From the NCBI GenBank assembly GCA_022865525.1, contig JALHSV010000264.1, positions 1 through 52,111 on the forward strand: a stretch of DNA of 52,111 nucleotides, given 5' to 3'. The notes beneath the pieces are model-generated. The model made no database searches. It had not been told where the DNA came from and worked only from the letters and a program-made list of their open reading frames with translations. Source of the stretch: Thermodesulfovibrionales bacterium. GTDB taxonomy: Bacteria; Nitrospirota; Thermodesulfovibrionia; Thermodesulfovibrionales; SM23-35. This document shows, piece by piece, positions 31,718-43,386 of the stretch; position 1 is the stretch's first letter, and every line of letters begins with the position of its first letter. The position numbers and the translations under genes are program-made.

Positions 31718-31754
31718 TCAGGTTGGGTGTGGGGTCACGTGGCCTCACACCTGA
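31718..31754 (+). terminator. imperfect stem-loop after the capsid block
   Basis: TCA..GGTGTG..GG / CC..CACACC..TGA hairpin. There is no T-run, so it may be an attenuator or processing site rather than a terminator. Confidence 0.3.
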
Positions 31755-31768
31755 CTTTAAGGTGAATT

Positions 31769-32464
31769 ATGACAGGCGCAGAACTAACAGATGAAGTTAG
31801 AGAGATAGTAGGCCGGCCGGGTGCTGCGGCTTCGGGTGTTATTACCGATGCCCGCGTGACCAGATGGCTTAATGATGCACAGGCGGCAATAGTAGAGGGG
31901 TGCGTAGGTCTTCATGGAATGTCCTTTAAGAATACGGACTCTCTGGATACTACCGCCGTACTCAAGTATGCGTTAGCCGATATAACCGTAGGCGATGTTT
32001 CCGTCTCGGACGCCGTATGCAGGATATACGACGTATGGTACCTGAACGGTCTTGAGACGAAAAAGCTGAACTTCCTGACTACCGACGAATTTGACGAGTT
32101 GTATCCCGACCCTACCCACAGTGATATTCCATTAACTATACCGTCTGTGTGGACGAGAAGGGGCGCTTATATAGAGATAATGCCGATAGGCGTTACCGCT
32201 TACTATGATAAGGACTTGCGATTCGACGGAGACAGGTACGCGCGTGATTTGACGACTAACGACGCTACCGTTTCGGATATTACCGGGGCCGACGAAGGTC
32301 TGATTGCTTACGGTGCATGGAAGGCGTGGGGTGCTATCGGAGGCCCGAAAGCTACCCTGGAAGAGTTGAAATGGAAGAGAAACTGGGAAGACTGGTTAGA
32401 TGACTTCCGTTCACAGAATGACGACTTGGATGAATGGGATGGTAAAATGTTCGGAGATATTTAG
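31769..32464 (+). CDS. head-tail adaptor / tail-tubular-A-like protein
   Basis: 231 aa. N-terminal LTDEVREIVGR......ITDARVTRWLNDAQAAI resembles head-tail connector families. Position is equivalent to T7 gp11. Confidence 0.4.
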   Translation: MTGAELTDEVREIVGRPGAAASGVITDARVTRWLNDAQAAIVEGCVGLHGMSFKNTDSLDTTAVLKYALADITVGDVSVSDAVCRIYDVWYLNGLETKKLNFLTTDEFDELYPDPTHSDIPLTIPSVWTRRGAYIEIMPIGVTAYYDKDLRFDGDRYARDLTTNDATVSDITGADEGLIAYGAWKAWGAIGGPKATLEELKWKRNWEDWLDDFRSQNDDLDEWDGKMFGDI

Positions 32465-32478
32465 AGAAGGGAAAAACA

Positions 32479-32865
32479 ATGGTCAGTGAGAAGGTCGGGT
32501 CTTTTATAAGTAAAGATGGGTGTAAATATAGTATAGATTGTCCCTTGTTGCCTCGTAATGGCGTTCCATACTGTTGCCGTCATTGTCATAAAAGCCGTAA
32601 GGATTACGTGACAGACTCCAACAGGCATTTATGGACTGATAAGGGCGGCTTTCATTCTCCGGATAACGGGTGCAGACTTCCTCGCGAAGATATGCCCAAA
32701 GAGTGTCTGGACTATGACTGCCGCAATTATTGGTTCTTTCTGGTATCGGCGTATTTTGATGGCAAGTGGATGTCTAATAGCGGCGCTCCGTTAAAAAGTG
32801 AAAATGAAGTTATAACAGTAGTAAAGTCTGTTAATGCAACTTTGTGGATGAATAGAAATGGTTAA
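32479..32865 (+). CDS. Cys/His-rich protein (128 aa), first ORF of the sugar island
   Basis: CKYSIDCP...CCRHCH...C...C..DC. No family recognised. Confidence 0.55.
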   Translation: MVSEKVGSFISKDGCKYSIDCPLLPRNGVPYCCRHCHKSRKDYVTDSNRHLWTDKGGFHSPDNGCRLPREDMPKECLDYDCRNYWFFLVSAYFDGKWMSNSGAPLKSENEVITVVKSVNATLWMNRNG

Positions 32866-33688
32866 AATTATAGCCGAAATGAGTGCTTCTCATCAGCAGT
32901 CTTTTCAAAAGGCTCTTGCGATAGTATGGGCGGCGGCCGAAGCAGGTGCCGACGCCCTTAAGGTACAAATGTTCACACCCGACGACATGACAGTCAATAG
33001 CAACGATAAAATGTATAGGATTGGAACTGGTCAGTGGTCGGGTATGACTTTGTACGAACTCTATCAGAAGGCTTGTATGCCCTACGATTGGATTCCCGCT
33101 ATAAAAGACCATGCGGAATCACGTGGAATGGAATTTATCGCTACGGTCTATCATCCGAGGACCGTGCCGATAGCCGTGGAAATGGGTATAAAGTCTCTGA
33201 AGATTTCGTCTTTTGAAATAAATTTTGAAAAATTATTAATTAGTGTTGACAAAACAAATTTACCCGTTATAGTTTCGACAGGTTCGGCTACTGAAAAGGA
33301 AATAAGTTATGTAGTTAATCTTTTGAGAAGGAACTTAACTTTGCTGAAATGCACATCACAATATCCAGCCCCTGCGGAATCGCTTAATATCAGAACTATT
33401 CCCGACATGTGCGAACGGTGGGGAGTTCCCGTAGGTCTTTCAGACCATTCTTTAGGCATGATAGGTGCTATAAGTGCGGTATCTTCAGGTGCATCTGCAA
33501 TCGAGAAGCACATTACGATTGACGGCAAAGGTCTGGACAAAGACTTTGCTATCCTTCCCGACAGGTTCAATATGATGGTACAGCTTGTTCGCGAGACCGA
33601 AAAGGCTTTAGGTGAAGTGGAGTATGGTGGTAAGAAGACTTATCATCGTGAACTCGTAGGTGGACAAATGCAGAGGACGGTAAAATGA
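32858..33688 (+). CDS. neuB: nonulosonic acid synthase (NeuB/PseI/LegI family), short form
   Basis: IIAEMSASHQQSFQKAL..AAEAGADALKVQMF, LKISS, VIVSTG, LLKCTSQYPAP and GLSDHS match the NeuB TIM-barrel domain. 276 aa, with no room for the C-terminal SAF domain. Confidence 0.85.
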   Translation: MVKIIAEMSASHQQSFQKALAIVWAAAEAGADALKVQMFTPDDMTVNSNDKMYRIGTGQWSGMTLYELYQKACMPYDWIPAIKDHAESRGMEFIATVYHPRTVPIAVEMGIKSLKISSFEINFEKLLISVDKTNLPVIVSTGSATEKEISYVVNLLRRNLTLLKCTSQYPAPAESLNIRTIPDMCERWGVPVGLSDHSLGMIGAISAVSSGASAIEKHITIDGKGLDKDFAILPDRFNMMVQLVRETEKALGEVEYGGKKTYHRELVGGQMQRTVK

Positions 33689-33690
33689 AA
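33648..33690 (+). repeat. junction repeat (..GQMQRTVK stop/ATGA), copy 1
   Basis: The core ggacaaatgcagaggacggtaaaatgaaa is identical to 34061-34089 at 27 of 29 positions. A weaker match extends 14 nt upstream. Confidence 0.85.
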
Positions 33691-33885
33691 TGTTTTCAAT
33701 GTAATAATATTATCGAAGGAATCTACAAAAATAATATGCAGATGCCGTTTGCAGAAAAAGAAGGGGATATGTTTAGGATTCTCGTAATATTTCCGGAAAA
33801 TATTCCGTTATGTACGAAATGTAAATGTGAAATTCTTATTAAAGGTTTCGAGAAAACACTCAGTGAAACGCAGAGAATGTCTTAA
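33685..33885 (+). CDS. small zinc-ribbon protein (66 aa)
   Basis: CFQCNN...CTKCKC. ATGA coupling to neuB. Confidence 0.55.
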   Translation: MKCFQCNNIIEGIYKNNMQMPFAEKEGDMFRILVIFPENIPLCTKCKCEILIKGFEKTLSETQRMS

Positions 33886-33922
33886 ACTATTATGTATATC
33901 ACCTATTGTGCCAAGTGTGTTA

Positions 33923-34087
33923 ATGGCTAAAGAAGTAGTGCCTTTTATAGACCCGCAACCATATTTAATTGATGAGTGGCATTGGCATGGGATAGGTTAT
34001 ATGGTGCCAGAAGATTATACCAAGGGTGGTTTTAGTTGGGTTCAATGTGAACTTGTGAACGGTCAAATGCAGAGAACGGTAAAATGA
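33923..34087 (+). CDS. small protein ending ELVNGQMQRTVK (copy of the NeuB C-terminus)
   Basis: Track ORF 33827-34087. First non-overlapping ATG is at 33923 and the start is uncertain. Confidence 0.45.
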   Translation: MAKEVVPFIDPQPYLIDEWHWHGIGYMVPEDYTKGGFSWVQCELVNGQMQRTVK

Positions 34088-34089
34088 AA
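34047..34089 (+). repeat. junction repeat, copy 2
   Basis: See 33648-33690. Confidence 0.85.
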
Positions 34090-34353
34090 CGAAAGACCGG
34101 AAAATTATATAAATACGTATTTCTATCCGTATTATTTACTTCTGTTTTTGTTTTATCCTGGTATATTATCCTGGTAAGATATTCGACTTGTAACCCGCTA
34201 TTGTTGATGGTAGCTATTCTCTGTGTTCTCATTTTACCCTTATTTATTATAGCGTGTTTATGTTCGTTATATGATTATTTAATATATTTCATTAAGAATT
34301 CCAGCCGTAAGTGTCAAATAGACCGAATAGAAAGTATATTAAAAGGACGGTAA
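34084..34353 (+). CDS. small membrane protein (2 TM)
   Basis: 89 aa with hydrophobic segments VFLSVLFTSVFVLSWYIILV and LLLMVAILCVLILPLFIIACL. Confidence 0.55.
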   Translation: MKRKTGKLYKYVFLSVLFTSVFVLSWYIILVRYSTCNPLLLMVAILCVLILPLFIIACLCSLYDYLIYFIKNSSRKCQIDRIESILKGR

Positions 34354-34359
34354 AATGAA
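34344..34359 (+). repeat. junction repeat, partial copy 3 (aggacggtaaaatgaa)
   Basis: 16-nt identity with the end of copy 1. Confidence 0.7.
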
Positions 34360-34456
34360 TGGATGGATAATGTTAGGAATAGGTTTTGTTTGTGGATTAT
34401 CTACTCGATATGTATGTCGTTTTTATTGGATGCTATTTACCCATAATGTTGAATAA
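34355..34456 (+). CDS. possible 33-aa membrane peptide
   Basis: MNGWIMLGIGFVCGLSTRYVCRFYWMLFTHNVE. Short, so uncertain. Confidence 0.3.
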   Translation: MNGWIMLGIGFVCGLSTRYVCRFYWMLFTHNVE

Positions 34457-35288
34457 CAAGACAATACTTATCTCAGGCGGAAGTGGTTCTTTGGGCCACG
34501 CTCTTGTCGAGAGGATATGCACAGAGTATTCGCCTAAAAAACTATTCATCTTCTCTCGTGACGAATACAAGCAATCTCTTATGCAGAAGCAATACGACTA
34601 CGACTGCCTGAGATATTTTATAGGTGACGTAAGGGACGTAAGAAGGCTCAAGCAGGTATGCCGGGGCGTTGACATAGTAATACACGCCGCAGCACTTAAA
34701 AGGGTAGATACGCTCGAATACAATCCCACAGAGGCCATCAGGACCAACGTGGACGGCACTATGAATGTAATTGAGACTTGTATCGAATGTGACGTAAAGA
34801 GTGCTGTTTTCATATCGACGGACAAGGCTTACGCCCCCGTGAATCTCTATGGCGCTACTAAGTTGGCAGCCGAGAAGATATGGCTGGCGGCAAACTCGTT
34901 CAATAAGACCGTCTTTACATTGGTAAGGTACGGTAACGTCATAAACTCAAGAGGTTCGGTAATCGAGTTATTCCTGAAGTTGAAAGAAAAGGGTATAAAG
35001 GAATTTCCGATAACCGATAAGAATATGAGTCGCTTCTGGATAACTCTGGACGAAGCGGTTGACCTTATAATAGTAGCTCTGGAACATCGAGGCGATTCGG
35101 ATATATATATCCCGAAAGTGCCTTCGATGTTGATAACCGAAGTGGCAAGGGCGATAGACCCCGACTGTACGTTTAATGAAATAGGAATACGTCCGGGCGA
35201 GAAGTTACACGAAACCTTATGTGACGGTTACTCCTCGAATACCAACGAGGACTGGATGACGCCGGAAGAGTTACTGGAGAAATTATGA
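34446..35288 (+). CDS. pseB: UDP-GlcNAc 4,6-dehydratase (PseB/FlaA1/CapD family)
   Basis: KTILISGGSGSLGHAL, FIGDVRD, IHAAALKRV..EYNPTEAIRTNVDGTMNV and ISTDKAYAPVNLYGATKLAAEK. ATG 34446 chosen (the track starts at TTG 34386). Confidence 0.85.
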   Translation: MLNNKTILISGGSGSLGHALVERICTEYSPKKLFIFSRDEYKQSLMQKQYDYDCLRYFIGDVRDVRRLKQVCRGVDIVIHAAALKRVDTLEYNPTEAIRTNVDGTMNVIETCIECDVKSAVFISTDKAYAPVNLYGATKLAAEKIWLAANSFNKTVFTLVRYGNVINSRGSVIELFLKLKEKGIKEFPITDKNMSRFWITLDEAVDLIIVALEHRGDSDIYIPKVPSMLITEVARAIDPDCTFNEIGIRPGEKLHETLCDGYSSNTNEDWMTPEELLEKL

Positions 35289-35494: not shown

Positions 35495-35634
35495 AACGCG
35501 TACTTGCTCTTATTATTACAAGCCCGGTATGGCTTACGGCGGTAGTTCTGATGAGTTTTGTTTGTATTCCCGTGTGGATTGCTCTTGGTATTGTCCGATT
35601 AATAATGTATGGTTTCAATGGAGAGTGGGAATAA
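35491..35634 (+). CDS. small membrane protein (47 aa; not in the ORF track)
   Basis: MKRVLALIITSPVWLTAVVLMSFVCIPVWIALGIVRLIMYGFNGEWE. Confidence 0.45.
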   Translation: MKRVLALIITSPVWLTAVVLMSFVCIPVWIALGIVRLIMYGFNGEWE

Positions 35635-35639
35635 TTTCG

Positions 35640-36266
35640 ATGATATTTGACAGACTCGCAATAGGCACGGCTAACTGGGGCAGGGAATACAACGGGGCGA
35701 AAGTCTCCGAAGATGACCAGAAGCGTATTCTCGACTACTGTCAATGCTCAGGTATAGACATGATAGATACGGCCACGGCTTATGGTTGGGACTGGACTAA
35801 AGTTAGTTCTTACTTCAATATTATAGTGAAGGTTAAGAGTAATGATAAAGTTGATAATGTAATAAAGATGGCACATAGCCTTGAAGATTACAAAGCCATA
35901 GACCCGGTTTGTAATGGTTGTTCTATATATTCGCCTGAAGAACGCATGTATGTTTACGGTGGTTCTGTGATACAAATACCTTATTCTATATATGACAGAC
36001 GATTTGAACCTTATTTGGAATCAATGCGATATGAATGTAATAATACTATCCACGTCCGTTCTATCTTCTTACGGGGCAAAATCTTAAAGGAATTTTCACC
36101 TCAGCAGTGTATATCCTTTTGCCTGATGAATCCTAATATAGACCGGGTAATTATAGGTGCGGACTCTTACAAACAGTTCAAAGAGAACCTGCGGCCTTTC
36201 CACGATATGAACGTAGCCGAGAAGCACGATATAAACTTATTAGATTGCCGAAAATGGGAGACATAA
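35640..36266 (+). CDS. aldo/keto reductase-like protein (short)
   Basis: LAIGTANWGREY......ILDYCQCSGIDMIDTATAYG is the AKR N-terminal signature. 208 aa from ATG 35640. Confidence 0.55.
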   Translation: MIFDRLAIGTANWGREYNGAKVSEDDQKRILDYCQCSGIDMIDTATAYGWDWTKVSSYFNIIVKVKSNDKVDNVIKMAHSLEDYKAIDPVCNGCSIYSPEERMYVYGGSVIQIPYSIYDRRFEPYLESMRYECNNTIHVRSIFLRGKILKEFSPQQCISFCLMNPNIDRVIIGADSYKQFKENLRPFHDMNVAEKHDINLLDCRKWET

Positions 36267-37531
36267 TGAATTGGCTTAAAACATGCGAGTTAATACCTGA
36301 CGGCGTTCAGACGTTATCCAAGATGCCGGAGAAACACATCAACGGCGTATATCCTAAGTACATCACACACGGAAAGGGTGCTTATGTTTACGGTGACGAT
36401 GGCAAACGGTACATAGATTACCCCTGTGGGCTGGGTGCCATCCTTTTAGGTTACGCAAACGACAGGGTTAATCAGGCCGTTAAGGAACAACTTAACAGGG
36501 GTTCTATTTTTTCACTGCCTAACTATCTGGAAACAGAACTCGCCGAGCGGATAGTTGACCTTATCCCAAGCGCTGAGAGAGTGCGCTTCTTAAAAACTGG
36601 CTCTGAGGCAACGTCCGCTGCGGTAAAGATTGCCCGTGCCTATACCGGTAAGGAAGGAATAATCTGTATAGGTTATCACGGCTGGCACGACTGGTACTGT
36701 TCTACGACCTCTAAGAAGGCCGGAGTACCCGAACAGCCGGTAGTCCAGTGTAAATATAACAGTATCACCGAGATAATCGACGCCTTTGAATTTAATGAGC
36801 AGGAGGACATGACCGGTATTGCGGCGGTAATAATGGAGCCGTACATCCTTGACGAACCCAACTTCGGGTACCTGACGAAGATACGTAAACTTTGTGATAG
36901 GTACAATGCAGTTTTGATATTCGATGAAGTAGTTACGGGATTCAGGACTACCGGTTACTCTGCACAGAAGATGTTCGGGATAATGCCGGATTTGACCTGT
37001 CTGGGTAAGGCGATGGCTAATGGCCTTCCGATTTCAGTAGTATGCGGTAAAAAGGAACTGATGGACGTTCTAAGGGGCGACTGTTTCGTTTCATCTACTT
37101 TCGGCGGCGAACTGCTCTCGATAACAGCGGCACTGGAAGTCTTGAAGATTCTCGATGAAGAGAATATTATCAGCAGGATTTGGGACAACGGCAACCTGTT
37201 CAAGGAAGGGTTCAGGCAGATAGTGGATTCCTGCAAGATGAATGACCATATAGGAATAAGGGGTTATCCGCCGAGGACATTCTTCACGTTCTCATCCGAA
37301 GTACACAAGAGCCTGTTCTGGCAGGAATGCCTTAGTAAGGGCGTCCTGTTCGGTTATGCCCAGTTTATCAGTGCCTCGCACGGCAGGGACGAAATAGACC
37401 AGACCCTGCTTGCGATGAAGCATGGTGTCCAGATGGTATCGAAGTATTTCGATAATCCGCTGGCGGCATTGAGGGGCGAGGTTGCACAGGAAACATTCAG
37501 AACACCGGGATTAGAGAAGGGCAAAAAATGA
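36266..37531 (+). CDS. class-III PLP aminotransferase (glutamate-1-semialdehyde aminomutase-like)
   Basis: GKGAYVYGDDGKRYIDY, FLKTGSEATSAAVKIARAYTG, IMEP, IFDEVVTGFR and LGKAMANGLP (PLP Lys). Start is at 36266 or 36254. Confidence 0.85.
   Translation: MNWLKTCELIPDGVQTLSKMPEKHINGVYPKYITHGKGAYVYGDDGKRYIDYPCGLGAILLGYANDRVNQAVKEQLNRGSIFSLPNYLETELAERIVDLIPSAERVRFLKTGSEATSAAVKIARAYTGKEGIICIGYHGWHDWYCSTTSKKAGVPEQPVVQCKYNSITEIIDAFEFNEQEDMTGIAAVIMEPYILDEPNFGYLTKIRKLCDRYNAVLIFDEVVTGFRTTGYSAQKMFGIMPDLTCLGKAMANGLPISVVCGKKELMDVLRGDCFVSSTFGGELLSITAALEVLKILDEENIISRIWDNGNLFKEGFRQIVDSCKMNDHIGIRGYPPRTFFTFSSEVHKSLFWQECLSKGVLFGYAQFISASHGRDEIDQTLLAMKHGVQMVSKYFDNPLAALRGEVAQETFRTPGLEKGKK
37513..37531 (+). repeat. 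junction repeat agagaagggcaaaaaatga (..EKGKK stop/ATGA), copy 1
   Basis: The same 19-mer occurs at 37683-37701 and 37868-37886. Confidence 0.9.
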
Positions 37532-37701
37532 GCATAAAAGGAGAAAAAAAGAGCGAAGATAAATGTGGTGTTTGCGGTAAAGTTATAGATTGGGATTTAT
37601 GTGACCCAATAATTAGGTGTGGCGAGGGAGATGTAATATTATCTTGTGGCCACATGGGATTGGAAAGCGGAAATGCGGATGAAGAGAAGGGCAAAAAATG
37701 A
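37528..37701 (+). CDS. small zinc-ribbon protein (57 aa; not in the ORF track)
   Basis: MSIKGEKKSEDKCGVCGK...RCGEGDVILSCGH...DEEKGKK. Bracketed by junction repeats. Confidence 0.5.
   Translation: MSIKGEKKSEDKCGVCGKVIDWDLCDPIIRCGEGDVILSCGHMGLESGNADEEKGKK
37683..37701 (+). repeat. junction repeat, copy 2
   Basis: See 37513-37531. Confidence 0.9.
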
Positions 37702-37886
37702 AGCTATTAAAAAAGTCAATCGATAAATATAAATGTAAATGGATTGAGCCTTGGGAAGGCGCACCTTGGGAGTACCAAGAATGTCGTTGTCCCGAGATAT
37801 TTGATGTGTCTTGTGTTCATCAAGCAAACGCAGGCCCAGACATTGGTAAGGATTATACCTGTTTCGAAGAGAAGGGCAAAAAATGA
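37698..37886 (+). CDS. small Cys-rich protein (62 aa) ending EEKGKK
   Basis: Bracketed by junction repeats. Confidence 0.55.
   Translation: MKLLKKSIDKYKCKWIEPWEGAPWEYQECRCPEIFDVSCVHQANAGPDIGKDYTCFEEKGKK
37868..37886 (+). repeat. junction repeat, copy 3
   Basis: See 37513-37531. Confidence 0.9.
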
Positions 37887-38440
37887 AACTTGAAGCACTA
37901 ACTTTAGACCAATGCGAGCAAGTCCGTATCTGGCGTAACGCCGAGATGGAATGCTGGCGAACGCCGTTCATGCTGACTAAACAGATGCAGGATGAGTTCT
38001 ATGAAGGGTGTTGCAACAGGGAATCGCCGCATAGATACTTTGCATTAGTAAGGACGACAGACGACCCAATTCAAGGCGTAGTGCCTGAATCAGGATTTAT
38101 CGGCATGGGTGGCATCACCTATATCCAGTGGGAGAACCGTATAGGCGAGATAACGCTTATCATCAATCCTGTCGAACGCGGGGACGGCTTAGGTGAGAAG
38201 GCGGTTGACCTACTCTTAGACCATGCTTTTAATCACTTGAATTTACAGACGGTATTCGGAGAATGTTATCATTGCAACGATGCTTGGGAGTTTTGGGGAG
38301 ATATAACAGATAAATATGATAGCCCTAATACAATACAAACGCTGTTGCCGAAACGAAAATATTGGAACGGAGACTACTGGGATAGTACGTATTTCTCAAT
38401 AGACAAAGATGACTTCAACAAAATCCATAATAGTAAGTAA
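37883..38440 (+). CDS. GNAT N-acetyltransferase (PseH-like)
   Basis: LTLDQCEQVRIWRNAE at the N-terminus and ...RGDGLGEKAVDLLLDHAF.HLNLQTV in the acetyl-CoA-binding region. Confidence 0.7.
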   Translation: MKLEALTLDQCEQVRIWRNAEMECWRTPFMLTKQMQDEFYEGCCNRESPHRYFALVRTTDDPIQGVVPESGFIGMGGITYIQWENRIGEITLIINPVERGDGLGEKAVDLLLDHAFNHLNLQTVFGECYHCNDAWEFWGDITDKYDSPNTIQTLLPKRKYWNGDYWDSTYFSIDKDDFNKIHNSK

Positions 38441-38957
38441 CCGATTGGTTAATCCCGACGACGAAGCCGATATAACCGGTAAGCTCGACTTTACCGCCGA
38501 AAGGCTGAAGGTCTATGGCAGGCTGGACTATATCTTCGTACCGTTCTGGAGTTGGTACATACCGGCTGATATTTACAAGAAGTGGAACGTAGTAATATTC
38601 CACATGACCGCACTTCCGTTCGGCAGGGGCGGCAGTCCGTTACAGAACTTAATCGTAAGGGGCTTTACGAAGACGAAGATAAGCGCCTTGAAATGCACGA
38701 AAGGCATAGACGCCGGGCCGTTATACTGTCAATCACCGCTCAGTCTCGAAGGTACTGCGGACAACATATATGACCGGGCCGACGATATTATAAGAAAAGC
38801 AATGATACCATTTATCAAGGTGCAGCAGCCCGAACCGAGTCCTCAGAGGGGCAAGGTCGTTTACTTCGATAAGTGGGTATGTACGAAGAAAGACATATTA
38901 AGGTGTATTAACTCAGATTATGAATGGAAAGATACTGACAATATCCGCACATCCTGA
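38409..38957 (+). CDS. formyltransferase-family protein
   Basis: FHMTALPFGRGGSPLQNLIVRG...KCTKGIDAGPL matches the H.SLLP..RG...D.G core of Formyl_trans_N. Confidence 0.6.
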   Translation: MTSTKSIIVSNRLVNPDDEADITGKLDFTAERLKVYGRLDYIFVPFWSWYIPADIYKKWNVVIFHMTALPFGRGGSPLQNLIVRGFTKTKISALKCTKGIDAGPLYCQSPLSLEGTADNIYDRADDIIRKAMIPFIKVQQPEPSPQRGKVVYFDKWVCTKKDILRCINSDYEWKDTDNIRTS

Positions 38958-39492
38958 CGATTGGGAATTGGGCTGTGCAGGAACGATAGAGCGACTGAAG
39001 CGTGAAGGGTGTGAATGTAATCATGCCGTATTAGGCTTAGGGCGTGGCGATGAAACTGATAATAAGTTCGATTCCTTACCTTTGTTGCATTGGGTAGGGC
39101 AGGTTGAACTGCATATAGCAATTCACAGGCCCGACATCATCCTCACTCACTACGCACACGACCTGAACATAGACCATAGGATAACTTATCAGGCCGTTAT
39201 TACGGCGGCACGACCGCTTCCCGACTATTGCGTCAGGGAGATATACTCATTCGAGGTCTTGAGTAGTACCGAGTGGTCGGACATACCGTTTAGGCCGGAT
39301 ATGTTCGTAGCCTTGACTTTGGATGATATGGAAACAAAAGAAAAGATATTGAGAGACGGATATGATAGCGAGATGAGAGACATGCCTCATGCCCGAAGTT
39401 ATCAGGCAGTTGAGTCTCTTGCAATGGTCAGAGGTATGACGGTAGGCGAGAAATACGCCGAAGCGTTTAAGACCGTGAGAAGGATAATATGA
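38920..39492 (+). CDS. PIG-L/LmbE family de-N-acetylase
   Basis: ILTISAHPDDWELGCAGTI and a downstream HxDH (NIDHR). Confidence 0.8.
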   Translation: MNGKILTISAHPDDWELGCAGTIERLKREGCECNHAVLGLGRGDETDNKFDSLPLLHWVGQVELHIAIHRPDIILTHYAHDLNIDHRITYQAVITAARPLPDYCVREIYSFEVLSSTEWSDIPFRPDMFVALTLDDMETKEKILRDGYDSEMRDMPHARSYQAVESLAMVRGMTVGEKYAEAFKTVRRII

Positions 39493-39737
39493 AAGAAGAC
39501 GAAAAACAGTTTCTTCGGATGATTTATGAAAAATGTGTACCTTTTGGTAATAAAAATTATTCTGTTAGAGATGTTATAAATAACCCTAAATGCCCCATAG
39601 TAAGTTACAAGAGAGCTTGGTATGTATTGGGTAAATGGTCAAGTGCTAAAATGGGGTTATATGATTATGGCGTTACTATTGATTTAGGTTGGTTGACTGA
39701 AAAAGGGATAGATTTTGCTAAAAATAATGAAACTTGA
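39489..39737 (+). CDS. hypothetical protein (82 aa)
   Basis: ATGA coupling. Confidence 0.55.
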   Translation: MKEDEKQFLRMIYEKCVPFGNKNYSVRDVINNPKCPIVSYKRAWYVLGKWSSAKMGLYDYGVTIDLGWLTEKGIDFAKNNET

Positions 39738-40506
39738 AGAACTAACAGCCTTATACAGTCCACTGGACATCGAATACGCCCAGGTAATGAGTGGGCCTTA
39801 CGAAGACCTGTCATTCCACGACGGCGATACCAAAGTCGTAGCGGGACTGAAAGACGGCAGGATAAGTGGTTTCTGGCGTCCTGTAGTGGCTGTGGGCGAC
39901 GATAAGGACTTGAAACTACATATTGAGCGTTTGTACGATATATGCCCTAATATCTATTATATGGACTTCCTGATAGACGGCAGGTTATCGGTGATAAGCC
40001 AGTTCTTATTGGAACGGGGCCATAAGGCACGGCCTTATTTCACGCAGATAATAGATTTGACAAAGACCGAAGAAGAATTGCACGCTGATTTGAGGAAGTC
40101 ATATAAGAGTTTAGTGAATAAAGGATTTGGCGGCATTGATACTGCATTAGGTGTTCTTAGAAAATTACACAAGGACACAAGAAGTAATGAAACTTGGCAT
40201 ATACAGTCGAAGATAATCGGAATGCAACAGGCGTTTATCTCAGATGACGAAGGAAAGTCGGCATGTCTTATATATCACAATAGATATACTGCATATTATT
40301 TTAGCGGTGTCTCTGAGGATGGCGTTAATTCTCATCCCTGTTTATGGATGGCCATATTGCAAGCAAAAGCATTAGGCTGTAAGACTTTTGAAATGGGCGA
40401 GCAGGTCTTTGACGGCGACCCCAAGTTAGTAAATATATCCAAATTCAAACGTGGATTTGGAGGAAAAACCGTAACTCGAATAATATTAGAGAAGGATACT
40501 AAATGA
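39727..40506 (+). CDS. FemAB/BioF2-like acyl(aminoacyl)transferase-fold protein
   Basis: IDLTKTEEELHADLRKSYKSLVNKG and the C-terminal ISKFKRGFGG are typical of the FemAB / Acetyltransf_6 family. By eye only. Confidence 0.5.
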   Translation: MKLEELTALYSPLDIEYAQVMSGPYEDLSFHDGDTKVVAGLKDGRISGFWRPVVAVGDDKDLKLHIERLYDICPNIYYMDFLIDGRLSVISQFLLERGHKARPYFTQIIDLTKTEEELHADLRKSYKSLVNKGFGGIDTALGVLRKLHKDTRSNETWHIQSKIIGMQQAFISDDEGKSACLIYHNRYTAYYFSGVSEDGVNSHPCLWMAILQAKALGCKTFEMGEQVFDGDPKLVNISKFKRGFGGKTVTRIILEKDTK

Positions 40507-41852
40507 AGAAAATACTCATCCTGACAGCATCACCCCGCAGAGATTTACTCATTGACGAGCAGATAGCCAAGAAACTCAAAGAGCTGGGTAACGAGACCAA
40601 GATAGCCCCCTGCCTTCGAGAGGGCAGGGATACGGTATTGGAGTACCAGCCTGACGTCGTGGTAGTTCCTCCTGTACGCAATATGTATTCGAGGGACTTC
40701 TGTGAGGACATCAAGCGATTCGGTTGCGGTTTGGTTTCAAGGCATACCGAGCCGTCCTGCGACTGGCCCGACTATAAAGCGATGAACCAGAAGCAGCAGA
40801 GTGAAATATGCGGTCTTATCCAATACTACGTCGATAGTGAACTGGTCTGGTCTGAAGATGAGGCACAAATACTGAATCGCCGAGGTGCAAAGTTCAAAGC
40901 TGTTAGTGTGGGGGCCGTCGGCGTAGATAAGTACCTTAACCCGGAATATAAGAAAAGGTATAAGGACAAGGCTAAATTCAAGAAAAAGTACAAGTTCACT
41001 AATAATAAGACCATTCTTATCCAGTCGCCGTGGGGGTTTGCAGACCATTCACCCGACCTGCGAATAGAGGAGGTTGACGAGTTCGTTAAGGACAACAAAG
41101 GCCGGGACAGGCACTTGGATATGATAGAGGCACTGCACAAGGAATTGCCGGATTATAATATCATCGTAACTACCCATCCGGGCGTAGTTACGAAGCCCTA
41201 CATTCAAAGACTCGGCAAGTTGGGGATACCGCTGGATACGGTATCGACCTCGCTTGAGTTAATGCTGAACTCTGATATTCTTATCCACGCCGGTTCGACA
41301 ATGGCTATCGGGGCGCACTTCCTGAAGATGCCCGCTTTCCAGTTCGGGGACGTTAATCTGAAGGATTCTACGAACTGGTGGCACCAATCGGGCAAGATAA
41401 TGGCAGAGATGTCGTTGAACTGCAAGAACCCAGAGATGCTGGCAAAGCTTATAAAAAAGGCAGAACCGAAGTCCAATATCAATAAGGAAGCCCTGGAGAA
41501 GCTCAGGGAAGGCCGTTACGGAATAATGGACGGTAAGGCCACCGACCGTGCGGCGGAGATAATCAATAAAATCGAAGGCAAGTTCAAGTTCGCCTGGCCG
41601 AGGTCAACTCACGACTATTCTCAGTTAACTATATTACAACACCCATCCAAGGCAATAGCAGATGCTAATTGTGGTATCTGTAAAGAGGCGTTCGGTATAA
41701 TGCGCCCCGAATATAAGGAAATGATTCGAGTAAACGTAGCAAACGTAGTTAAGGAAGCAGAGTTAGTAAATAAGATAATGCTGATATTTGAGCCGGTACG
41801 AGGCACTTACTGCCCGCACTGCGGTTCAAGATTTATGCCGGTAATGCCATGA
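40503..41852 (+). CDS. GT-B-like glycosyltransferase/hydrolase (PseG- or CMP-sugar-transferase-like) with C-terminal zinc ribbon
   Basis: 449 aa. Rossmann-like MKKILILTASP.., IIVTTHPG, and SDILIHAGSTMAIGAHFLKMPAF resembling the GT28/MurG-PseG C-terminal motif. CGICK...CPHCGSRF at the C-terminus. Confidence 0.5.
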   Translation: MKKILILTASPRRDLLIDEQIAKKLKELGNETKIAPCLREGRDTVLEYQPDVVVVPPVRNMYSRDFCEDIKRFGCGLVSRHTEPSCDWPDYKAMNQKQQSEICGLIQYYVDSELVWSEDEAQILNRRGAKFKAVSVGAVGVDKYLNPEYKKRYKDKAKFKKKYKFTNNKTILIQSPWGFADHSPDLRIEEVDEFVKDNKGRDRHLDMIEALHKELPDYNIIVTTHPGVVTKPYIQRLGKLGIPLDTVSTSLELMLNSDILIHAGSTMAIGAHFLKMPAFQFGDVNLKDSTNWWHQSGKIMAEMSLNCKNPEMLAKLIKKAEPKSNINKEALEKLREGRYGIMDGKATDRAAEIINKIEGKFKFAWPRSTHDYSQLTILQHPSKAIADANCGICKEAFGIMRPEYKEMIRVNVANVVKEAELVNKIMLIFEPVRGTYCPHCGSRFMPVMP

Positions 41853-42508
41853 TTTCAGCGATAATTCAAGCAAGGTTAGGTAGTACGAGACTGCCCCGCA
41901 AGGTACTCTTAGAGATACCCAAAGGCAGTGGCGCTACCTGTCTGGACAGAGTTATCGAAGCGGTCAAGAAGAGTATGATAGACCGTATCTCGCTTACCAC
42001 ACCCGATAAGGAACTCTTCGAAATGTTATGGGGAAGGTGGCCCTTAAGGGTGCATCATTACGCCGGTAAAGAGAGGAACGTAATTGCCGAGTTCTTCAGT
42101 ATAGCGATAGAAGGTGATACTATAGTCAGGATAACCGCCGACTGCCCGATGCTGGACTCCGACCAGATAGATAAGTGCATAGACGAGTTTTTAGACGGCG
42201 ATTACGATTTAGTTTACAATACGGACGAGTCTATTACAATGGACGGCGACGGTACCGACGTTGAGGTATTTTCGTACAAGGCCCTGAGAGAGGTTTACTT
42301 GAATGCGACGGGAAACGAGAAAGAGCATGTGACTTTATGGATGAGAAGGAACTTGAAATGTAAATATGTACCTGTGACCTTTAACGGTTGCAGTTTGAAC
42401 AATATCGAAGATTACGAGCGTATTTGCAAGCTCTGGACTGAGAAGGAAGAAAGCGATAAAATATGTCAGTCCACCCAGACGGCTCCGGCACAGGCTGGAC
42501 AAATGTAG
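41849..42508 (+). CDS. acylneuraminate/SpsF-type cytidylyltransferase (CMP-nonulosonate synthetase-like)
   Basis: MISAIIQARLGSTRLPRKVL and RITADCPMLD match CTP_transf_3. Confidence 0.8.
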   Translation: MISAIIQARLGSTRLPRKVLLEIPKGSGATCLDRVIEAVKKSMIDRISLTTPDKELFEMLWGRWPLRVHHYAGKERNVIAEFFSIAIEGDTIVRITADCPMLDSDQIDKCIDEFLDGDYDLVYNTDESITMDGDGTDVEVFSYKALREVYLNATGNEKEHVTLWMRRNLKCKYVPVTFNGCSLNNIEDYERICKLWTEKEESDKICQSTQTAPAQAGQM

Positions 42509-43386
42509 AGGCGGTAGATGTTAATCAGCCGCACGGCAAGGATTACTTATACTGTCAGCACATAGCAAAGGGCGTTCGCAAGCGGATGAACGCCGAACAC
42601 GCGGCATTCGCAGACGCTACGGTAGGAGGGATTCACGTTCCCGGCGGTTGTGCGGTTCTCGGCATCGAGGACGGTACGGCCACTGTCATAGCGGACGGCA
42701 CTCTCGTAGGTCATGGTATCGTATGGGACAATACCGAAGCGTTATGGTGTTGTACCAAAGCCGCTGGCGCTTCGACTACAGGCGACTGGACAATCCTCCA
42801 GATGAATCCCAATACCCAATGGAAGGGCGGCGATGTAACGTGGGCGGGCAATCACCAGTTCGATTCGAGTGTGGACTTCTCAGATGTAGATATAACAGGA
42901 AGTCTATTAGTCGATAGCTCTGCCGACTTCTCTCACGCCTTCTTTGATGGCACAGTAATAGCCACTAATCTTGAAGTTACGGGGGCTGCAATCTTTGATG
43001 GAACCTCCAATTTTTATGATGAAATAGATTTTTCTTCTTTTAATGTTTCTGGATTAGCGGGTATATACGGCAGTTTCAAAACGCAAGATAGTGATGCCGC
43101 AGCTTTAGTTGGTGATGTTACTTATAAAGCATCATCTGATGGATTACTTATAATGTGTACTTCGGGTTCAACAAATAATAAATGGAAATTCAAACAAGCG
43201 TCGGCGGCAAATGTCGTGACAGTTATGGGACAAGGTTATTATGCGGCGGCCGGTACTATAAGAGTAGAAGTAGCAACTTTTCCTATTAAGAAAGATTATT
43301 ATTGGTGCATAAGTTTAGAAGCCGCTACTTTATCTACTTGTTATTGGATTCCTTTTGGTGATGGTTCTTGTGATAAGAATATATAA
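42463..43386 (+). CDS. tail fibre/spike-like structural protein
   Basis: 307 aa, Gly/Thr/Asp-rich with beta-rich composition. Its start lies 46 nt inside the cytidylyltransferase gene and it directly precedes the nozzle-like gene. Confidence 0.4.
   Translation: MSVHPDGSGTGWTNVEAVDVNQPHGKDYLYCQHIAKGVRKRMNAEHAAFADATVGGIHVPGGCAVLGIEDGTATVIADGTLVGHGIVWDNTEALWCCTKAAGASTTGDWTILQMNPNTQWKGGDVTWAGNHQFDSSVDFSDVDITGSLLVDSSADFSHAFFDGTVIATNLEVTGAAIFDGTSNFYDEIDFSSFNVSGLAGIYGSFKTQDSDAAALVGDVTYKASSDGLLIMCTSGSTNNKWKFKQASAANVVTVMGQGYYAAAGTIRVEVATFPIKKDYYWCISLEAATLSTCYWIPFGDGSCDKNI

What the first reader, a model, noticed from the sequence alone, without database searches (positions are those of the whole stretch)
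31769..43386. The sugar island splits the head-tail/tail module and is coupled into the late virion operon
The island lies exactly between the adaptor-like gene (31769-32464) and the fibre-like and nozzle-like genes (42463, 43386). I found no terminator or promoter at either edge. The fibre-like ORF starts 46 nt inside the cytidylyltransferase gene. Expression together with virion proteins argues for a late function. That function could be glycosylation of the fibre, capsid or LamG-associated proteins, or of the host envelope at assembly or lysis. A classical early host-takeover role seems less likely.
Basis: inference. Interest (0 to 1): 0.7.

Follow-up and report, generated by a model that had tools for sequence, protein, structure and literature searches.

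The report
Phage tail operon carries sialic-acid-like sugar pathway
An uncultured tailed phage, and every close relative sampled, carries a ten-kilobase gene set between its head-to-tail adaptor gene and its tail-fibre gene that should make a sialic-acid-like sugar (pseudaminic-acid type) and attach it to some target, so the sugar probably serves the virus particle or its release; this has not been described for phages.

Summary
Genes 32479-42508 lie between a SU10-type adaptor gene (31769-32464) and a fibre-like (42463-43386) and nozzle (43386-45437) gene. All are on one strand. The gap at the 5' edge is 14 nt and the overlap at the 3' edge is 46 nt.

The block encodes a pseudaminic-acid-type nonulosonic-acid (NulO) pathway: PseB, a PseI without its SAF domain, a class-III aminotransferase, GNAT, formyltransferase-like, PIG-L, FemAB-like and cytidylyltransferase proteins. 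It also encodes a GT-B transferase remotely related to the Tannerella forsythia Pse/Leg transferase.

It is not a recent island. About 22 metagenomic relatives (nozzle 39-71% identical) carry it, and all 13 whose whole slot is visible have it in the same slot. Its enzymes co-diverge with the nozzle. Relatives without it join adaptor, fibre and nozzle directly.

Two corrections apply. The strongest hairpin in the genome lies 10 nt upstream of the adaptor start and recurs in relatives. Sigma-70-like sites are also enriched just upstream of the fibre gene in relatives.

Best reading: a late-expressed, phage-encoded system that adds a Pse-like sugar to a conserved acceptor, most likely a virion protein. 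Host-envelope modification is the main rival. The acceptor and the timing are inferred, not shown.

The parts
31720..31757 (+). 17-bp GC-rich hairpin in the 62-nt spacer between the head genes and the adaptor gene. It is probably an attenuator or an RNA-processing or stability element.
   Evidence: Strongest 44-nt fold in the genome (-26.8 kcal/mol; z about -5.5). Hairpins of -20 to -32 kcal/mol end 6-25 nt before the adaptor ATG in 10 of 12 other island-bearing relatives, with different stem sequences. L006 has one 142 nt upstream, followed by a U-run. It is absent in the island-less L044 and L036.
31769..32464 (+). Head-to-tail adaptor (SU10 type)
   Evidence: Pfam PF24175, 38.6 bits. Homologues sit in the same position in relatives.
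32479..32865 (+). Cys-rich 128-aa protein, a probable partner of the transferase
   Evidence: No family hit. Conserved in most relatives. In L007 it is fused to the N-terminus of an AAA_33 kinase-transferase protein (BLASTP E = 2e-16).
32858..33688 (+). Nonulosonic acid synthase, PseI type, lacking the C-terminal SAF domain
   Evidence: Pfam NeuB 220 bits. TIGR03586 PseI 267 bits (cut-off 340) against NeuB 189 bits. The five relatives with called genes have 269-287 aa NeuB-only proteins.
33685..34353 (+). Three small AT-rich ORFs (66, 86 and 89 aa) bounded by junction repeats. They are probably secondary insertions.
   Evidence: GC 0.30-0.38 against 0.44-0.48 for the enzymes. A 48-nt repeat occurs at 33643 and 34042 and a 24-nt repeat family D1 recurs at the junctions.
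34386..35288 (+). UDP-GlcNAc 4,6-dehydratase, inverting (PseB type). The true start is probably the ATG at 34446.
   Evidence: TIGR03589 PseB 379.6 bits (cut-off 407.75) against LegB 56 bits. Pfam Polysacc_synt_2 291 bits.
35529..36266 (+). Aldo/keto-reductase-like protein of unknown step
   Evidence: Pfam Aldo_ket_red 29.6 bits over the N-terminus only. Conserved in most relatives.
36245..37531 (+). Class-III (GSA-aminomutase-like) PLP aminotransferase. The start is probably the ATG at 36266.
   Evidence: Pfam Aminotran_3 193.8 bits; NF004856 321 bits. No DegT/PseC-type aminotransferase is present in the block.
37528..37886 (+). Two tandem small Cys-rich ORFs (57 and 62 aa), each ending EEKGKK and joined by ATGA overlaps
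   Evidence: Exact 16-nt repeat AGAAGGGCAAAAAATG three times, at 37515, 37685 and 37870; no shuffle of 100 reached the observed number of matches.
37883..38440 (+). GNAT N-acetyltransferase (PseH-like role inferred)
   Evidence: Pfam Acetyltransf_3 47 bits. TIGR03585 PseH only 19.5 bits.
38409..38957 (+). Formyltransferase-like protein (variable in relatives)
   Evidence: PDB 1zgh E = 1.8e-36. A similar gene lies inside a canonical bacterial Pse operon.
38920..39492 (+). PIG-L/LmbE-family deacetylase (variable in relatives)
   Evidence: Pfam PIG-L 50 bits.
39715..40506 (+). FemAB-family-like protein, possibly adding an aminoacyl N-acyl group
   Evidence: TIGR04421 39.5 bits (cut-off 250). Found in every relative whose sequenced stretch covers that position.
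40503..41852 (+). GT-B transferase of the BFO_1060/TIGR04396 (TagB-like) superfamily with a C-terminal CxxC...CxxC zinc ribbon. Candidate CMP-NulO transferase.
   Evidence: NF046086 94.4 bits, E = 7.5e-27, full-length (cut-off 200). Model pLDDT 86 with a GT-B fold; TagF, TarL and 2-epimerases are the top PDB matches. H225 invariant and P226 nearly invariant (HP motif). The nearest cellular homologues are bona fide family members.
41849..42508 (+). Cytidylyltransferase (CMP-NulO synthetase role)
   Evidence: Pfam CTP_transf_3 57.9 bits; PDB 6oew E = 3e-12.
42213..42240 (+). Weak sigma-70-like site (TTTACA-16-TACAAT) inside the cytidylyltransferase gene, 223 nt before the fibre ATG
   Evidence: 10/12 in the window. 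The same codon region scores 12/12 in L001 and 11/12 in L042. L012 and L003 have 12/12 and 11/12 sites 66-84 nt before the fibre gene. Seven of 19 genomes have a site of at least 10/12 within 450 nt of the fibre start, P = 7.5e-4.
42463..43386 (+). Tail-fibre-like protein
   Evidence: N-terminal 135 aa conserved (0.57-0.61) and C-terminal 100 aa variable (0.23), with swapped C-terminal domains in homologues, PF21882 being the most frequent. BFVD matches are weak and mostly fibre or collagen-like, and the model confidence is low.
43386..45437 (+). Tail nozzle protein
   Evidence: phrog_3287. 196 metagenomic homologues. tblastn to the Hc3 'head-closure' protein of Vibrio phage 1.262.O and to 7-11/GAP52 proteins.

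Best explanation
The block is an old, vertically inherited module of a lineage of uncultured podoviruses, probably of Planctomycetota. It sits at the adaptor|fibre junction of the late structural gene block.

Proposed mechanism:
1. It is transcribed by read-through from the head genes, past a conserved hairpin, together with the adaptor gene. It is translated by stop-start coupling from weak ribosome-binding sites, so the enzymes are made late and in small amounts.
2. PseB, the class-III aminotransferase, the acyl-modifying enzymes (GNAT, formyltransferase-like, PIG-L, FemAB-like), the SAF-less PseI and the cytidylyltransferase convert UDP-GlcNAc into a CMP-activated pseudaminic-acid-type nonulosonic acid, probably with a non-standard N-acyl group.
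3. The BFO_1060/TagB-like GT-B transferase, probably working with the Cys-rich protein, transfers that sugar in the cytoplasm to an acceptor that is conserved across the lineage. I take this acceptor to be most likely a virion surface protein (the fibre's conserved N-terminal part, or a head or tail decoration protein), so that progeny particles carry an acidic Pse-like sugar.

Shown: gene content, position, conservation, tight packing, and the transferase fold and family.
Inferred: late timing, product identity, transferase activity, and the virion acceptor.
For: - Pathway genes.
- Transferase sequence: a full-length but sub-threshold match to NF046086. That family's founding members are required for Pse/Leg transfer in T. 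forsythia while the CMP-sugar still accumulates (PMC5420450).
- Transferase structure: GT-B model closest to TagF, TarL and CMP-binding capsule polymerases. HP motif: H225 invariant, P226 nearly invariant.
- The nearest cellular relatives pass the family cut-offs. In Marinomonas the family member follows a complete PseB-PseC-PseF-PseG-PseI operon, so it is additional to PseG.
- Position: all 13 relatives with both flanks visible, and about 22 island-bearing sequences in all, have the block between adaptor and fibre. All 19 transferase loci found in IMG/VR come from contigs of this lineage.
- Island-less relatives L044 and L036 have adaptor, fibre and nozzle contiguous.
- The sister clade L034/L043 has another enzyme cassette with a homologous transferase in the same slot.
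- Co-divergence with the nozzle, r = 0.58-0.82, similar to or higher than that of the fibre (0.56).
- Composition matches that of the structural genes.
- The transferase N-domain, which usually binds the acceptor in GT-B enzymes, is more conserved than its donor domain (0.55 and 31 invariant residues against 0.49 and 17), although the fibre tips are swapped. This argues for a conserved acceptor.
- Tight packing in relatives: largest gap about 12 nt in L006 and about 10 nt in L008.
- Precedents: glycosyltransferase genes in mycobacteriophages are linked to glycosylated virions (Freeman 2023, cited in PMC13313380). Archaeal virus HRPV-1 carries host-made legionaminic acid on its spike protein (PMC6137143).
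Against: - There is no expression or biochemical data.
- The pathway lacks a recognisable PseC (DegT type) and PseG. PseB and PseI score below the NCBIfam equivalog cut-offs, so the product may not be a classical Pse, or host enzymes may be needed.
- The transferase scores 94 bits against a cut-off of 200. Its top structural matches include UDP-GlcNAc 2-epimerases, so a biosynthetic (hydrolysing epimerase or PseG-like) role is not excluded.
- The characterised homologue transfers to a glycan (ManNAcA), not directly to protein.
- Sigma-70-like sites are enriched upstream of the fibre gene, and an 11/12 site lies inside PseI. The block may therefore not be one unit with the tail genes.
- Some relatives are temperate (integrase in L002; L044 lies in a 397-kb MAG contig), which fits host-surface conversion.
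- Nothing identifies a specific virion acceptor.
Confidence: 0.42

Rival explanations
1. Host-envelope remodelling. The same CMP-Pse-like donor is transferred to a host glycan (LPS, capsule, S-layer or other protein-linked glycan). This would mask the phage's own receptor late in infection, limiting superinfection and loss of progeny on debris, or it would change the surface in lysogens.
For: - The characterised homologue (Tanf_01245/BFO_1060) adds Pse or Leg to a ManNAcA residue of a glycan.
- TagF/TarL-like enzymes act on lipid-linked polymers.
- Cellular family members sit in polysaccharide clusters.
- The gene lies next to the receptor-binding fibre gene, as conversion genes do in some temperate phages (own knowledge: P22 gtrABC next to the tailspike gene).
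- Some relatives are temperate.
- Prophage enzymes that alter Pse in Acinetobacter capsules are known (PMC12053666, PMC6586298).
Against: - No promoter or terminator pair isolates the block, and it sits 15 kb inside a 31-kb co-directional late block. Expression in a lysogen is hard to explain.
- No integrase was detected among the window proteins that were scanned.
- No membrane proteins of the Gtr, Wzy or acyltransferase type are present.
- The acceptor domain is highly conserved although the fibre tips, and presumably the receptors, vary.
- The block has never moved to the lysogeny module in about 22 genomes.
Confidence: 0.3
2. Donor supply only. The block boosts or alters the host's own CMP-NulO pool, as an auxiliary metabolic gene set. 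The 449-aa GT-B protein is then the missing PseG- or NeuC-like UDP-sugar hydrolase or epimerase, not a transferase, and host transferases do the attaching.
For: - No PseG is recognisable in the block.
- The top Foldseek hits include UDP-GlcNAc and UDP-ManNAc3NAcA 2-epimerases (E = 1e-10), and PseG itself appears at rank 46.
- The transferase is below the NF046086 cut-off.
Against: - There is no sequence match to PseG, NeuC or WecB models at E <= 1e-3, while the BFO_1060 and TIGR04396 models match end to end.
- The cellular relatives closest to the phage profile are true family members.
- In Marinomonas the family member coexists with PseG.
- The T. forsythia knock-out still makes the CMP-sugar.
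- The sister clade keeps the transferase homologue without any NulO synthesis genes. That makes no sense for a pathway enzyme.
Confidence: 0.12
3. Modification of a non-protein phage component, for example sugar hypermodification of the packaged DNA or of an ejected internal component, timed with packaging.
For: Only the timing and position among the morphogenesis genes. Phage DNA glycosylation exists (own knowledge: T4 glucosyl-hmC).
Against: - No hydroxymethylase, base-modifying or DNA-glycosyltransferase family was found among the window proteins that were scanned.
- CMP-NulO donors and TagB-like enzymes are not known to act on DNA.
Confidence: 0.04
4. A recently acquired mobile island or moron that merely landed in a permissive slot and has no functional link with the virion genes.
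For: - A GC dip at 33-36 kb.
- Repeated junction sequences and small inserted ORFs.
- The slot between adaptor and nozzle holds variable cargo in other podoviruses.
Against: - The block is present in the same slot in genomes whose nozzles are only 39-48% identical.
- Its enzymes co-diverge with the nozzle.
- The enzyme genes are compositionally like the structural genes, and only the small ORFs are AT-rich.
- It has no flanking promoter or terminator.
Confidence: 0.03

Closest known systems
Bacterial pseudaminic acid operons with a downstream BFO_1060/TIGR04396 transferase (T. forsythia Tanf_01190-01245; Marinomonas CP002583 cluster)
   Same: PseB-type dehydratase, NeuB/PseI synthase, CTP_transf_3 cytidylyltransferase, a formyltransferase-like gene and a roughly 450-aa TagB-like GT-B protein encoded together.
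   Different: - A class-III aminotransferase replaces the DegT-type PseC.
- No PseG is present.
- PseI lacks its SAF domain.
- AKR-like, FemAB-like, PIG-L and Cys-rich proteins are extra.
- The transferase is a divergent phage-specific clade with a zinc ribbon.
- The whole set sits inside a phage tail operon, not a chromosomal glycan locus.
Virion glycosylation of mycobacteriophages (Freeman et al. 2023, as cited in PMC13313380 and PMC11256854)
   Same: Phage-encoded glycosyltransferases are linked to modification of virion proteins in the cytoplasm. That their genes lie among the virion structural genes is my recollection of Freeman 2023, which could not be read here.
   Different: Those phages use host nucleotide sugars and ordinary hexose-type glycans. 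Here the phage would supply the whole donor pathway for a nine-carbon acidic sugar, and glycosylation of particles has not been shown.
Haloarchaeal virus HRPV-1 spike protein VP4 carrying 5-N-formyl-legionaminic acid (PMC6137143)
   Same: A prokaryotic virus particle decorated with a nonulosonic acid that matters for adsorption.
   Different: In HRPV-1 the sugar and the glycosylation machinery come entirely from the host. Here both are virus-encoded, and the virus is a tailed phage.
Virus-encoded glycosylation machineries of chloroviruses and mimiviruses (own knowledge)
   Same: A virus carries both sugar-nucleotide synthesis genes and transferases to decorate its own capsid or fibrils independently of the host.
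   Different: Those are giant eukaryotic viruses with different sugars. No NulO pathway was found among 50,697 GenBank phage records apart from one uncultured marine virus.
Serotype-converting prophage cassettes (gtrABC, oac; Acinetobacter prophage epaAB and NulO O-acetyltransferases, PMC12053666, PMC6586298)
   Same: Phage genes that change a surface glycan, sometimes next to the receptor-binding protein gene, sometimes acting on Pse.
   Different: Those are one to three genes with their own expression signals at prophage ends, and they act on host polymers in lysogens. This is a set of more than 10 genes with no own signals in the middle of the late block.
SU10/phiEco32-type podovirus tails (adaptor, fibres, nozzle)
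   Same: Adaptor and nozzle homologues, with fibre genes between them.
   Different: Sequence identity is below 30%. Cultured members have no sugar genes in the slot.

Membership tests
Canonical pseudaminic acid pathway (PseB-C-H-G-I-F) | Inverting UDP-GlcNAc 4,6-dehydratase PseB | tested here: inconclusive
   TIGR03589 379.6 bits, just under the equivalog cut-off of 407.75. It scores far above LegB (56) and FnlA (230).
Canonical pseudaminic acid pathway (PseB-C-H-G-I-F) | DegT/DnrJ/EryC1-type C4 aminotransferase PseC | tested here: not met
   No DegT hit in any ORF of the block. The only aminotransferase is class III and GSA-like.
Canonical pseudaminic acid pathway (PseB-C-H-G-I-F) | PseH N-acetyltransferase | tested here: inconclusive
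   A GNAT is present (Pfam 47 bits), but TIGR03585 scores only 19.5 bits against a cut-off of 93.
Canonical pseudaminic acid pathway (PseB-C-H-G-I-F) | PseG UDP-sugar hydrolase (GT28-like) | tested here: not met
   No Glyco_tran_28_C or PseG hit. The only GT-B protein is closer to TagF and BFO_1060.
Canonical pseudaminic acid pathway (PseB-C-H-G-I-F) | PseI synthase (NeuB TIM barrel plus SAF domain) | tested here: inconclusive
   TIGR03586 267 bits (cut-off 340). It scores better than NeuB (189). The match covers model positions 3-267 of 327, and no SAF domain is present.
Canonical pseudaminic acid pathway (PseB-C-H-G-I-F) | PseF CMP-Pse synthetase | tested here: inconclusive
   Pfam CTP_transf_3 57.9 bits. 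The best NCBIfam hits are weak and KdsB-like. There is no PseF equivalog hit.
BFO_1060 / TIGR04396 nonulosonic-acid transferases | Score at or above the curated cut-off of NF046086 (200) or TIGR04396 (125) | tested here: not met
   94.4 and 72.4 bits, though the matches are end to end with E = 7.5e-27 and 4e-20. It is a divergent relative, not a curated member.
BFO_1060 / TIGR04396 nonulosonic-acid transferases | GT-B (TagB-like) fold with a conserved HP motif in the C-terminal domain | tested here: met
   Model pLDDT 86 with two Rossmann-like domains. TagF and TarL are among the top PDB hits. H225 is invariant and P226 nearly invariant in 38 sequences. The motif is described in PMC5420450.
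BFO_1060 / TIGR04396 nonulosonic-acid transferases | Encoded next to CMP-NulO synthesis genes | tested here: met
   It lies next to the cytidylyltransferase gene in the window and in most relatives; a few have extra ORFs in between. The bacterial arrangement is the same.
BFO_1060 / TIGR04396 nonulosonic-acid transferases | Loss abolishes NulO transfer while the CMP-NulO pool persists | not testable with these tools
   This needs genetics or biochemistry. It has been shown only for T. forsythia.
Phage virion-glycosylation systems | Transferase gene embedded among virion structural genes | tested here: met
   It lies between the adaptor and fibre genes in the window and in every relative.
Phage virion-glycosylation systems | Glycan demonstrated on virion proteins | not testable with these tools
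   No particles or mass spectra are available.
Moron / lysogenic-conversion cassette | Own promoter and terminator, location at a module or prophage boundary, atypical composition | tested here: not met
   No signals at the edges. It sits mid-operon. The enzyme genes match the genome in GC and GC3.
SU10-like podovirus tail module | SU10-type adaptor and a nozzle homologue in the order portal-MCP-adaptor-...-nozzle | tested here: met
   PF24175 is above its cut-off. phrog_156 portal, phrog_9953 MCP and phrog_3287 nozzle were found.

The most novel reading that the evidence does not exclude
A whole lineage of tailed phages makes its own sialic-acid-like sugar (a pseudaminic acid derivative) and uses its own transferase to coat its particles, probably the tail fibre or a head or tail decoration protein, without depending on the host. 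This would be the first phage-encoded nonulosonic-acid glycosylation system. In sister phages the same slot carries a homologous transferase with different donor-modifying enzymes (methyltransferase plus B12-radical-SAM enzymes). That would point to a general, previously unrecognised 'virion surface chemistry' cassette at the adaptor|fibre junction.
Probability: 0.38. Interest if true: 0.8.

Novelty: new variant of a known kind. Interest (0 to 1): 0.62.

Why it matters
Nonulosonic acids are key recognition molecules on bacterial, archaeal and animal surfaces. Known phage involvement is limited to binding them, cleaving them or slightly editing host polymers.

A near-complete donor pathway plus a dedicated transferase, fixed inside the tail-gene block of a diverse phage lineage, would show that phages can control an acidic surface sugar themselves. 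That could affect adsorption, particle stability, sticking to sediment or biofilm matrix, and recognition by host or grazer lectins.

It also supplies three things of wider use:
- a divergent, compact set of Pse-type enzymes (a class-III aminotransferase in place of PseC, a SAF-less PseI, no PseG) that challenges the canonical pathway scheme;
- a new clade of candidate NulO transferases, an enzyme class for which few examples are known;
- a comparative framework of about 22 genomes with the block, plus relatives without it or with a different cassette, for testing why phages place enzymes among tail genes.

Tried and rejected
- Megablast of 28-47 kb against GenBank phages gave no match.
- A close-relative scan with the adaptor in IMG/VR found nothing. 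The nozzle and later the profile scans worked.
- PHROGs gave nothing for the adaptor, fibre, Cys128, NeuB, transferase or cytidylyltransferase.
- PDB sequence searches gave nothing for the transferase or the FemAB-like protein, and only marginal hits for the AKR-like protein.
- My greedy ORF tiling of relatives produced artefactual 'gaps' where over-extended ORFs displaced real genes. I discarded it and used the database gene calls for L006 and L008.
- The fibre model was poor (pLDDT 63), so its Foldseek matches are only weakly indicative.
- Rfam found only one tRNA-like gene and no riboswitch or leader in the block.
- Freeman et al. 2023 is not held and could be cited only second-hand.
- Six literature searches found no report of a phage-encoded NulO pathway.
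- The apparent 352-nt non-coding gap at 37531-37883 is filled by two coupled small ORFs.
- The 11/12 sigma-70-like site inside PseI (33246) overlaps the conserved P-V-I-V-S-T-G codons. It could not drive a complete pathway, so I do not treat it as evidence of independent expression.
- I considered and rejected a recent island or moron.
- I considered DNA modification and rate it very unlikely.

Full report
**What the window is.** The 52,111-base window is a whole contig. Its first 141 bases are repeated exactly at the end, so it is a complete, circularly assembled genome of about 51,970 bp. One of its proteins is identical to a GenBank protein from a MAG labelled Thermodesulfovibrionales. It has no nucleotide-level relative among 50,697 GenBank phage records.

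From about 17.7 kb onwards the + strand carries, in order:
- a small terminase and a large terminase;
- a LamG protein;
- portal 26613-28787 and major capsid protein 29608-30645;
- two small head-region proteins;
- a SU10-type adaptor, 31769-32464;
- the sugar genes;
- a fibre-like gene, 42463-43386;
- a nozzle gene, 43386-45437;
- further tail or internal proteins up to about 50.7 kb.

**Checking the observation.** Every element of the finding is present at the stated coordinates.
- The spacer between the adaptor and the first gene of the block is 14 nt.
- The fibre ATG at 42463 lies 46 nt inside the cytidylyltransferase ORF. It is the only in-frame start before residue 42, and relatives align to it from residue 1.
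- Consensus scans give chance numbers of promoter-like and terminator-like sites, with none at either edge.
- Between 19.5 and 51 kb all genes are co-directional and the largest gap is 77 nt. Inside the block, gaps are at most 34 nt by the ORF list. The apparent gap at 37531-37883 is filled by two coupled small ORFs. Nine of 17 junctions are ATGA overlaps.
- Structural genes have canonical AGGAG ribosome-binding sites, while the block's genes have weaker ones. That fits enzymes made in small amounts.

**What the block encodes**.
- A PseI-type nonulosonic acid synthase without the SAF domain.
- A PseB-type inverting UDP-GlcNAc 4,6-dehydratase.
- An AKR-like protein.
- A class-III, GSA-like aminotransferase.
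- A GNAT.
- A formyltransferase-like protein.
- A PIG-L deacetylase.
- A FemAB-like protein.
- A 449-aa protein matching the BFO_1060 and TIGR04396 families.
- A CTP_transf_3 cytidylyltransferase.

The dehydratase and synthase clearly prefer the Pse models over the Leg and Neu models but fall just below the equivalog cut-offs. No DegT-type PseC and no PseG are present. This is therefore a pseudaminic-acid-type pathway of non-canonical composition, probably yielding a derivative with an unusual N-acyl group (inference).

**The 449-aa protein.**
- BFO_1060 is the strain 92A2 homologue of Tanf_01245/TFUB4_00887. Deleting those genes removes the terminal Pse or Leg derivative from the T. forsythia O-glycan, while the CMP-sugar still accumulates (PMC5420450).
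- The phage protein matches that model end to end (E = 7.5e-27) but below the cut-off.
- Its AlphaFold model (pLDDT 86) is a GT-B fold. The closest solved structures are the teichoic-acid polymerases TagF and TarL, CMP-binding capsule polymerases and UDP-GlcNAc 2-epimerases.
- H225 is invariant and P226 nearly invariant in 38 homologues, giving the sialyltransferase-type HP motif.
- A profile search of 1.84 billion representative proteins found only 610 relatives. Of ten nearest full-length cellular relatives that I scanned, 8 pass the BFO_1060 cut-off and 9 pass the TIGR04396 cut-off.
- In Marinomonas a family member follows a complete PseB-PseC-PseF-PseG-PseI operon. The family is therefore not a PseG substitute.
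- I read the protein as a divergent CMP-NulO transferase, with about two-thirds confidence.
- The Cys-rich protein at 32479-32865 is fused to a kinase-transferase protein in relative L007, which links it functionally to the transferase.

**Comparative genomics.** This changes the picture most.
- The nozzle has 196 metagenomic homologues.
- I fetched about 60 loci from IMG/VR, GTDB genomes and other assemblies and mapped the window's proteins onto them.
- About 22 distinct sequences carry the block. Their nozzles are 39-71% identical to the window's.
- In all 13 where both flanks are visible the order is portal-MCP-p238-p96-adaptor-[Cys128]-PseI-PseB-AKR-aminotransferase-GNAT-[FMT, PIG-L]-FemAB-transferase-cytidylyltransferase-fibre-nozzle.
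- A transferase-based scan of IMG/VR recovered contigs of this lineage only.
- Pairwise-identity matrices of the enzymes correlate with that of the nozzle (r = 0.58-0.82), similar to or higher than that of the fibre (0.56). Mean divergence is similar.
- The enzyme genes have the GC and GC3 of the structural genes.
- More distant relatives define the slot. In L044 (inside a 397-kb Phycisphaerales MAG contig) and in L036, adaptor, fibre and nozzle are contiguous.
- In L034 and L043 the slot holds a methyltransferase, a B12-radical-SAM enzyme, a further radical-SAM enzyme in L034, and a homologous BFO_1060-like transferase, but no NulO synthesis genes.
- In cultured outgroups (Vibrio phage 1.262.O, Cronobacter phage GAP52) the same interval holds ordinary fibre or unknown genes.
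- The genome-collection hits within the lineage (21-60% identity range; the four closest) are Planctomycetota MAGs, so that phylum is the likely host. This inference is weak.

1. The hairpin upstream of the adaptor.
   - The strongest local hairpin of the genome (31720-31757, 17 bp, -26.8 kcal/mol) ends 10 nt before the adaptor ATG.
   - Ten of 12 other island-bearing relatives have a hairpin of -20 to -32 kcal/mol ending 6-25 nt before their adaptor start, with unrelated stem sequences. L006 has one further upstream, followed by a U-run. The two island-less relatives lack it.
   - No promoter can fit between the hairpin and the adaptor, so the adaptor and the block must be read through it. 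It is most likely an attenuator or an RNA-processing or stability element that lowers expression of everything downstream relative to the capsid genes (inference).
2. Promoter-like sites.
   - In the window, the only + strand matches of at least 11/12 are at 16672, in the intergenic region ahead of the late block and so a plausible real promoter, and at 33246, inside PseI over the conserved PVIVSTG codons.
   - Across 19 relatives, matches of at least 10/12 are four-fold enriched in the 450 nt before the fibre gene (7 of 19 genomes, P = 7.5e-4).
   - Two perfect 12/12 sites occur, against 0.03 expected. One is at the same codon region of the cytidylyltransferase gene as the window's 10/12 site at 42213. 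The other is 84 nt upstream of a fibre gene.
   - The relatives are not independent, so this is suggestive only. The tail genes may nonetheless have their own booster promoter at the 3' end of the block.
   - The block would then lie in an expression trough between the hairpin and that promoter, co-transcribed with the adaptor.

**Mechanism and target.** The donor pathway and the transferase are cytoplasmic and lack recognisable membrane proteins. Virion assembly is also cytoplasmic.
- The transferase's N-terminal domain, which usually binds the acceptor in GT-B enzymes, is more conserved than its donor domain. Yet the fibre C-termini, and presumably the receptors, are swapped among the same genomes. 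This favours an acceptor that is constant in the lineage, such as a virion protein.
- The block has never moved out of the structural block, and sister phages keep a homologous transferase in the same slot with other enzymes. Together with the first point, this makes me favour modification of a virion protein (about 0.4).
- Host-envelope modification is the main rival (about 0.3). The characterised homologue acts on a glycan, family members sit in polysaccharide loci, and some relatives are temperate.
- A pure donor-supply role is less likely (about 0.12). DNA modification and a recent moron are unlikely.

**Comparison with what is known.** The parts are known: Pse-type enzymes, BFO_1060-like transferases and a SU10-like tail. 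The combination is not.
- A NeuB homologue occurs in only 2 of 50,697 GenBank phage records, and one of those is a bacterial contig. The transferase occurs in none.
- PHROGs has no family for the synthase, the transferase or the cytidylyltransferase.
- Six literature searches found no report of a phage-encoded NulO pathway, and a large NulO-synthase survey does not mention phages or viruses.
- The nearest concepts are mycobacteriophage virion glycosylation, host-made legionaminic acid on the archaeal virus HRPV-1, giant-virus glycosylation machineries, and prophage enzymes that edit Pse in Acinetobacter capsules.

**Verdict.** I class the block as a new variant of a known kind, namely virus-encoded glycosylation. 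Interest is moderately high.

**Main weaknesses.**
- There are no expression or chemical data.
- The host is uncultured.
- The pathway is incomplete by canonical standards.
- The acceptor is unknown.

Noticed in passing
window 31720-31757: The strongest hairpin of the whole genome lies 10 nt upstream of the adaptor ATG. Equivalent hairpins with unrelated stem sequences occur at the same place in 10 of 12 other island-bearing relatives, but not in island-less ones.
   Followed up: yes
window 42643-42686: The second strongest hairpin of the genome (-25.3 kcal/mol) lies inside the fibre ORF, 179 nt after its start. Moderately stable hairpins recur at +165 to +186 in L002, L003, L012 and L028. This may be a side effect of conserved codons.
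   Followed up: partly
window 33643-33690, 34042-34089, 34342-34365, 42496-42511; 37515, 37685, 37870: Repeated gene-junction sequences (GGACAAATGCAGAGGACGGTAAAATGA and AGAAGGGCAAAAAATGA) flank small AT-rich, often Cys-rich ORFs. They look like recombination or translational-coupling cassettes through which small genes were inserted.
   Followed up: partly
window 1-141 and 51971-52111: An exact 141-nt terminal direct repeat shows that the window is a complete circularly assembled genome of about 51,970 bp.
   Followed up: yes
L034 4045-8849; L043 4586-8710: Sister-clade phages carry, in the same adaptor-fibre slot, a SAM methyltransferase, a B12-binding radical-SAM enzyme (PhpK-like P-methyltransferases are among its best hits), a second radical-SAM enzyme in L034, and a BFO_1060-like transferase. 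They have no NulO synthesis genes.
   Followed up: partly
L007 4580-6946 (also P0193, P0198, P0206, P0237): In some relatives the transferase is fused to an AAA_33 P-loop kinase. In L007 the Cys-rich domain that is a separate gene in the window (32479-32865) is fused as well.
   Followed up: partly
window 32858-33688 and homologues in L002, L006 and L008: Where gene calls are available (269-287 aa), the PseI-type synthase lacks the C-terminal SAF (antifreeze-like) domain that bacterial NeuB and PseI enzymes use for substrate binding.
   Followed up: no
window 16672-16699: The only other + strand sigma-70-like site of at least 11/12 in the genome (TTGACA-16-TATACT) lies in the intergenic region just ahead of the HNH/terminase/structural block. 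It is a plausible promoter for that block.
   Followed up: partly
window 4180-4265: A tRNA-like gene (Rfam tRNA 52 bits) for which ARAGORN cannot assign an amino acid or a normal anticodon.
   Followed up: no
window 22734-25368: A LamG/Laminin_G_3 protein (269 aa) and an unannotated 610-aa protein lie between the terminase and portal genes. In relatives, LamG or F5/8-type-C (discoidin) domains are fused to the nozzle C-terminus (P0009, P0012, P0080, P0082).
   Followed up: no
L003 4379-5486: One relative carries an AAA_33 kinase and an RNA ligase inside its sugar block, together with an HNH-AP2 homing-endonuclease-like gene at its start.
   Followed up: no
L007 14021-22025; L003 15771-20678; L005 14042-18436: Very large proteins (1,464 to more than 4,384 aa) lie downstream of the tail genes. 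They carry LPD38 domains, and in L007 also MutS_I and SNF2 helicase domains. They may be ejected internal proteins.
   Followed up: no
window 11906-11950 and 12131-12175: A 45-nt near-identical direct repeat that includes a ribosome-binding site and start codon lies upstream of two small early-region ORFs.
   Followed up: no
window 17105-17707: An HNH endonuclease gene lies immediately upstream of the small terminase gene, the arrangement typical of HNH-assisted cos packaging.
   Followed up: no
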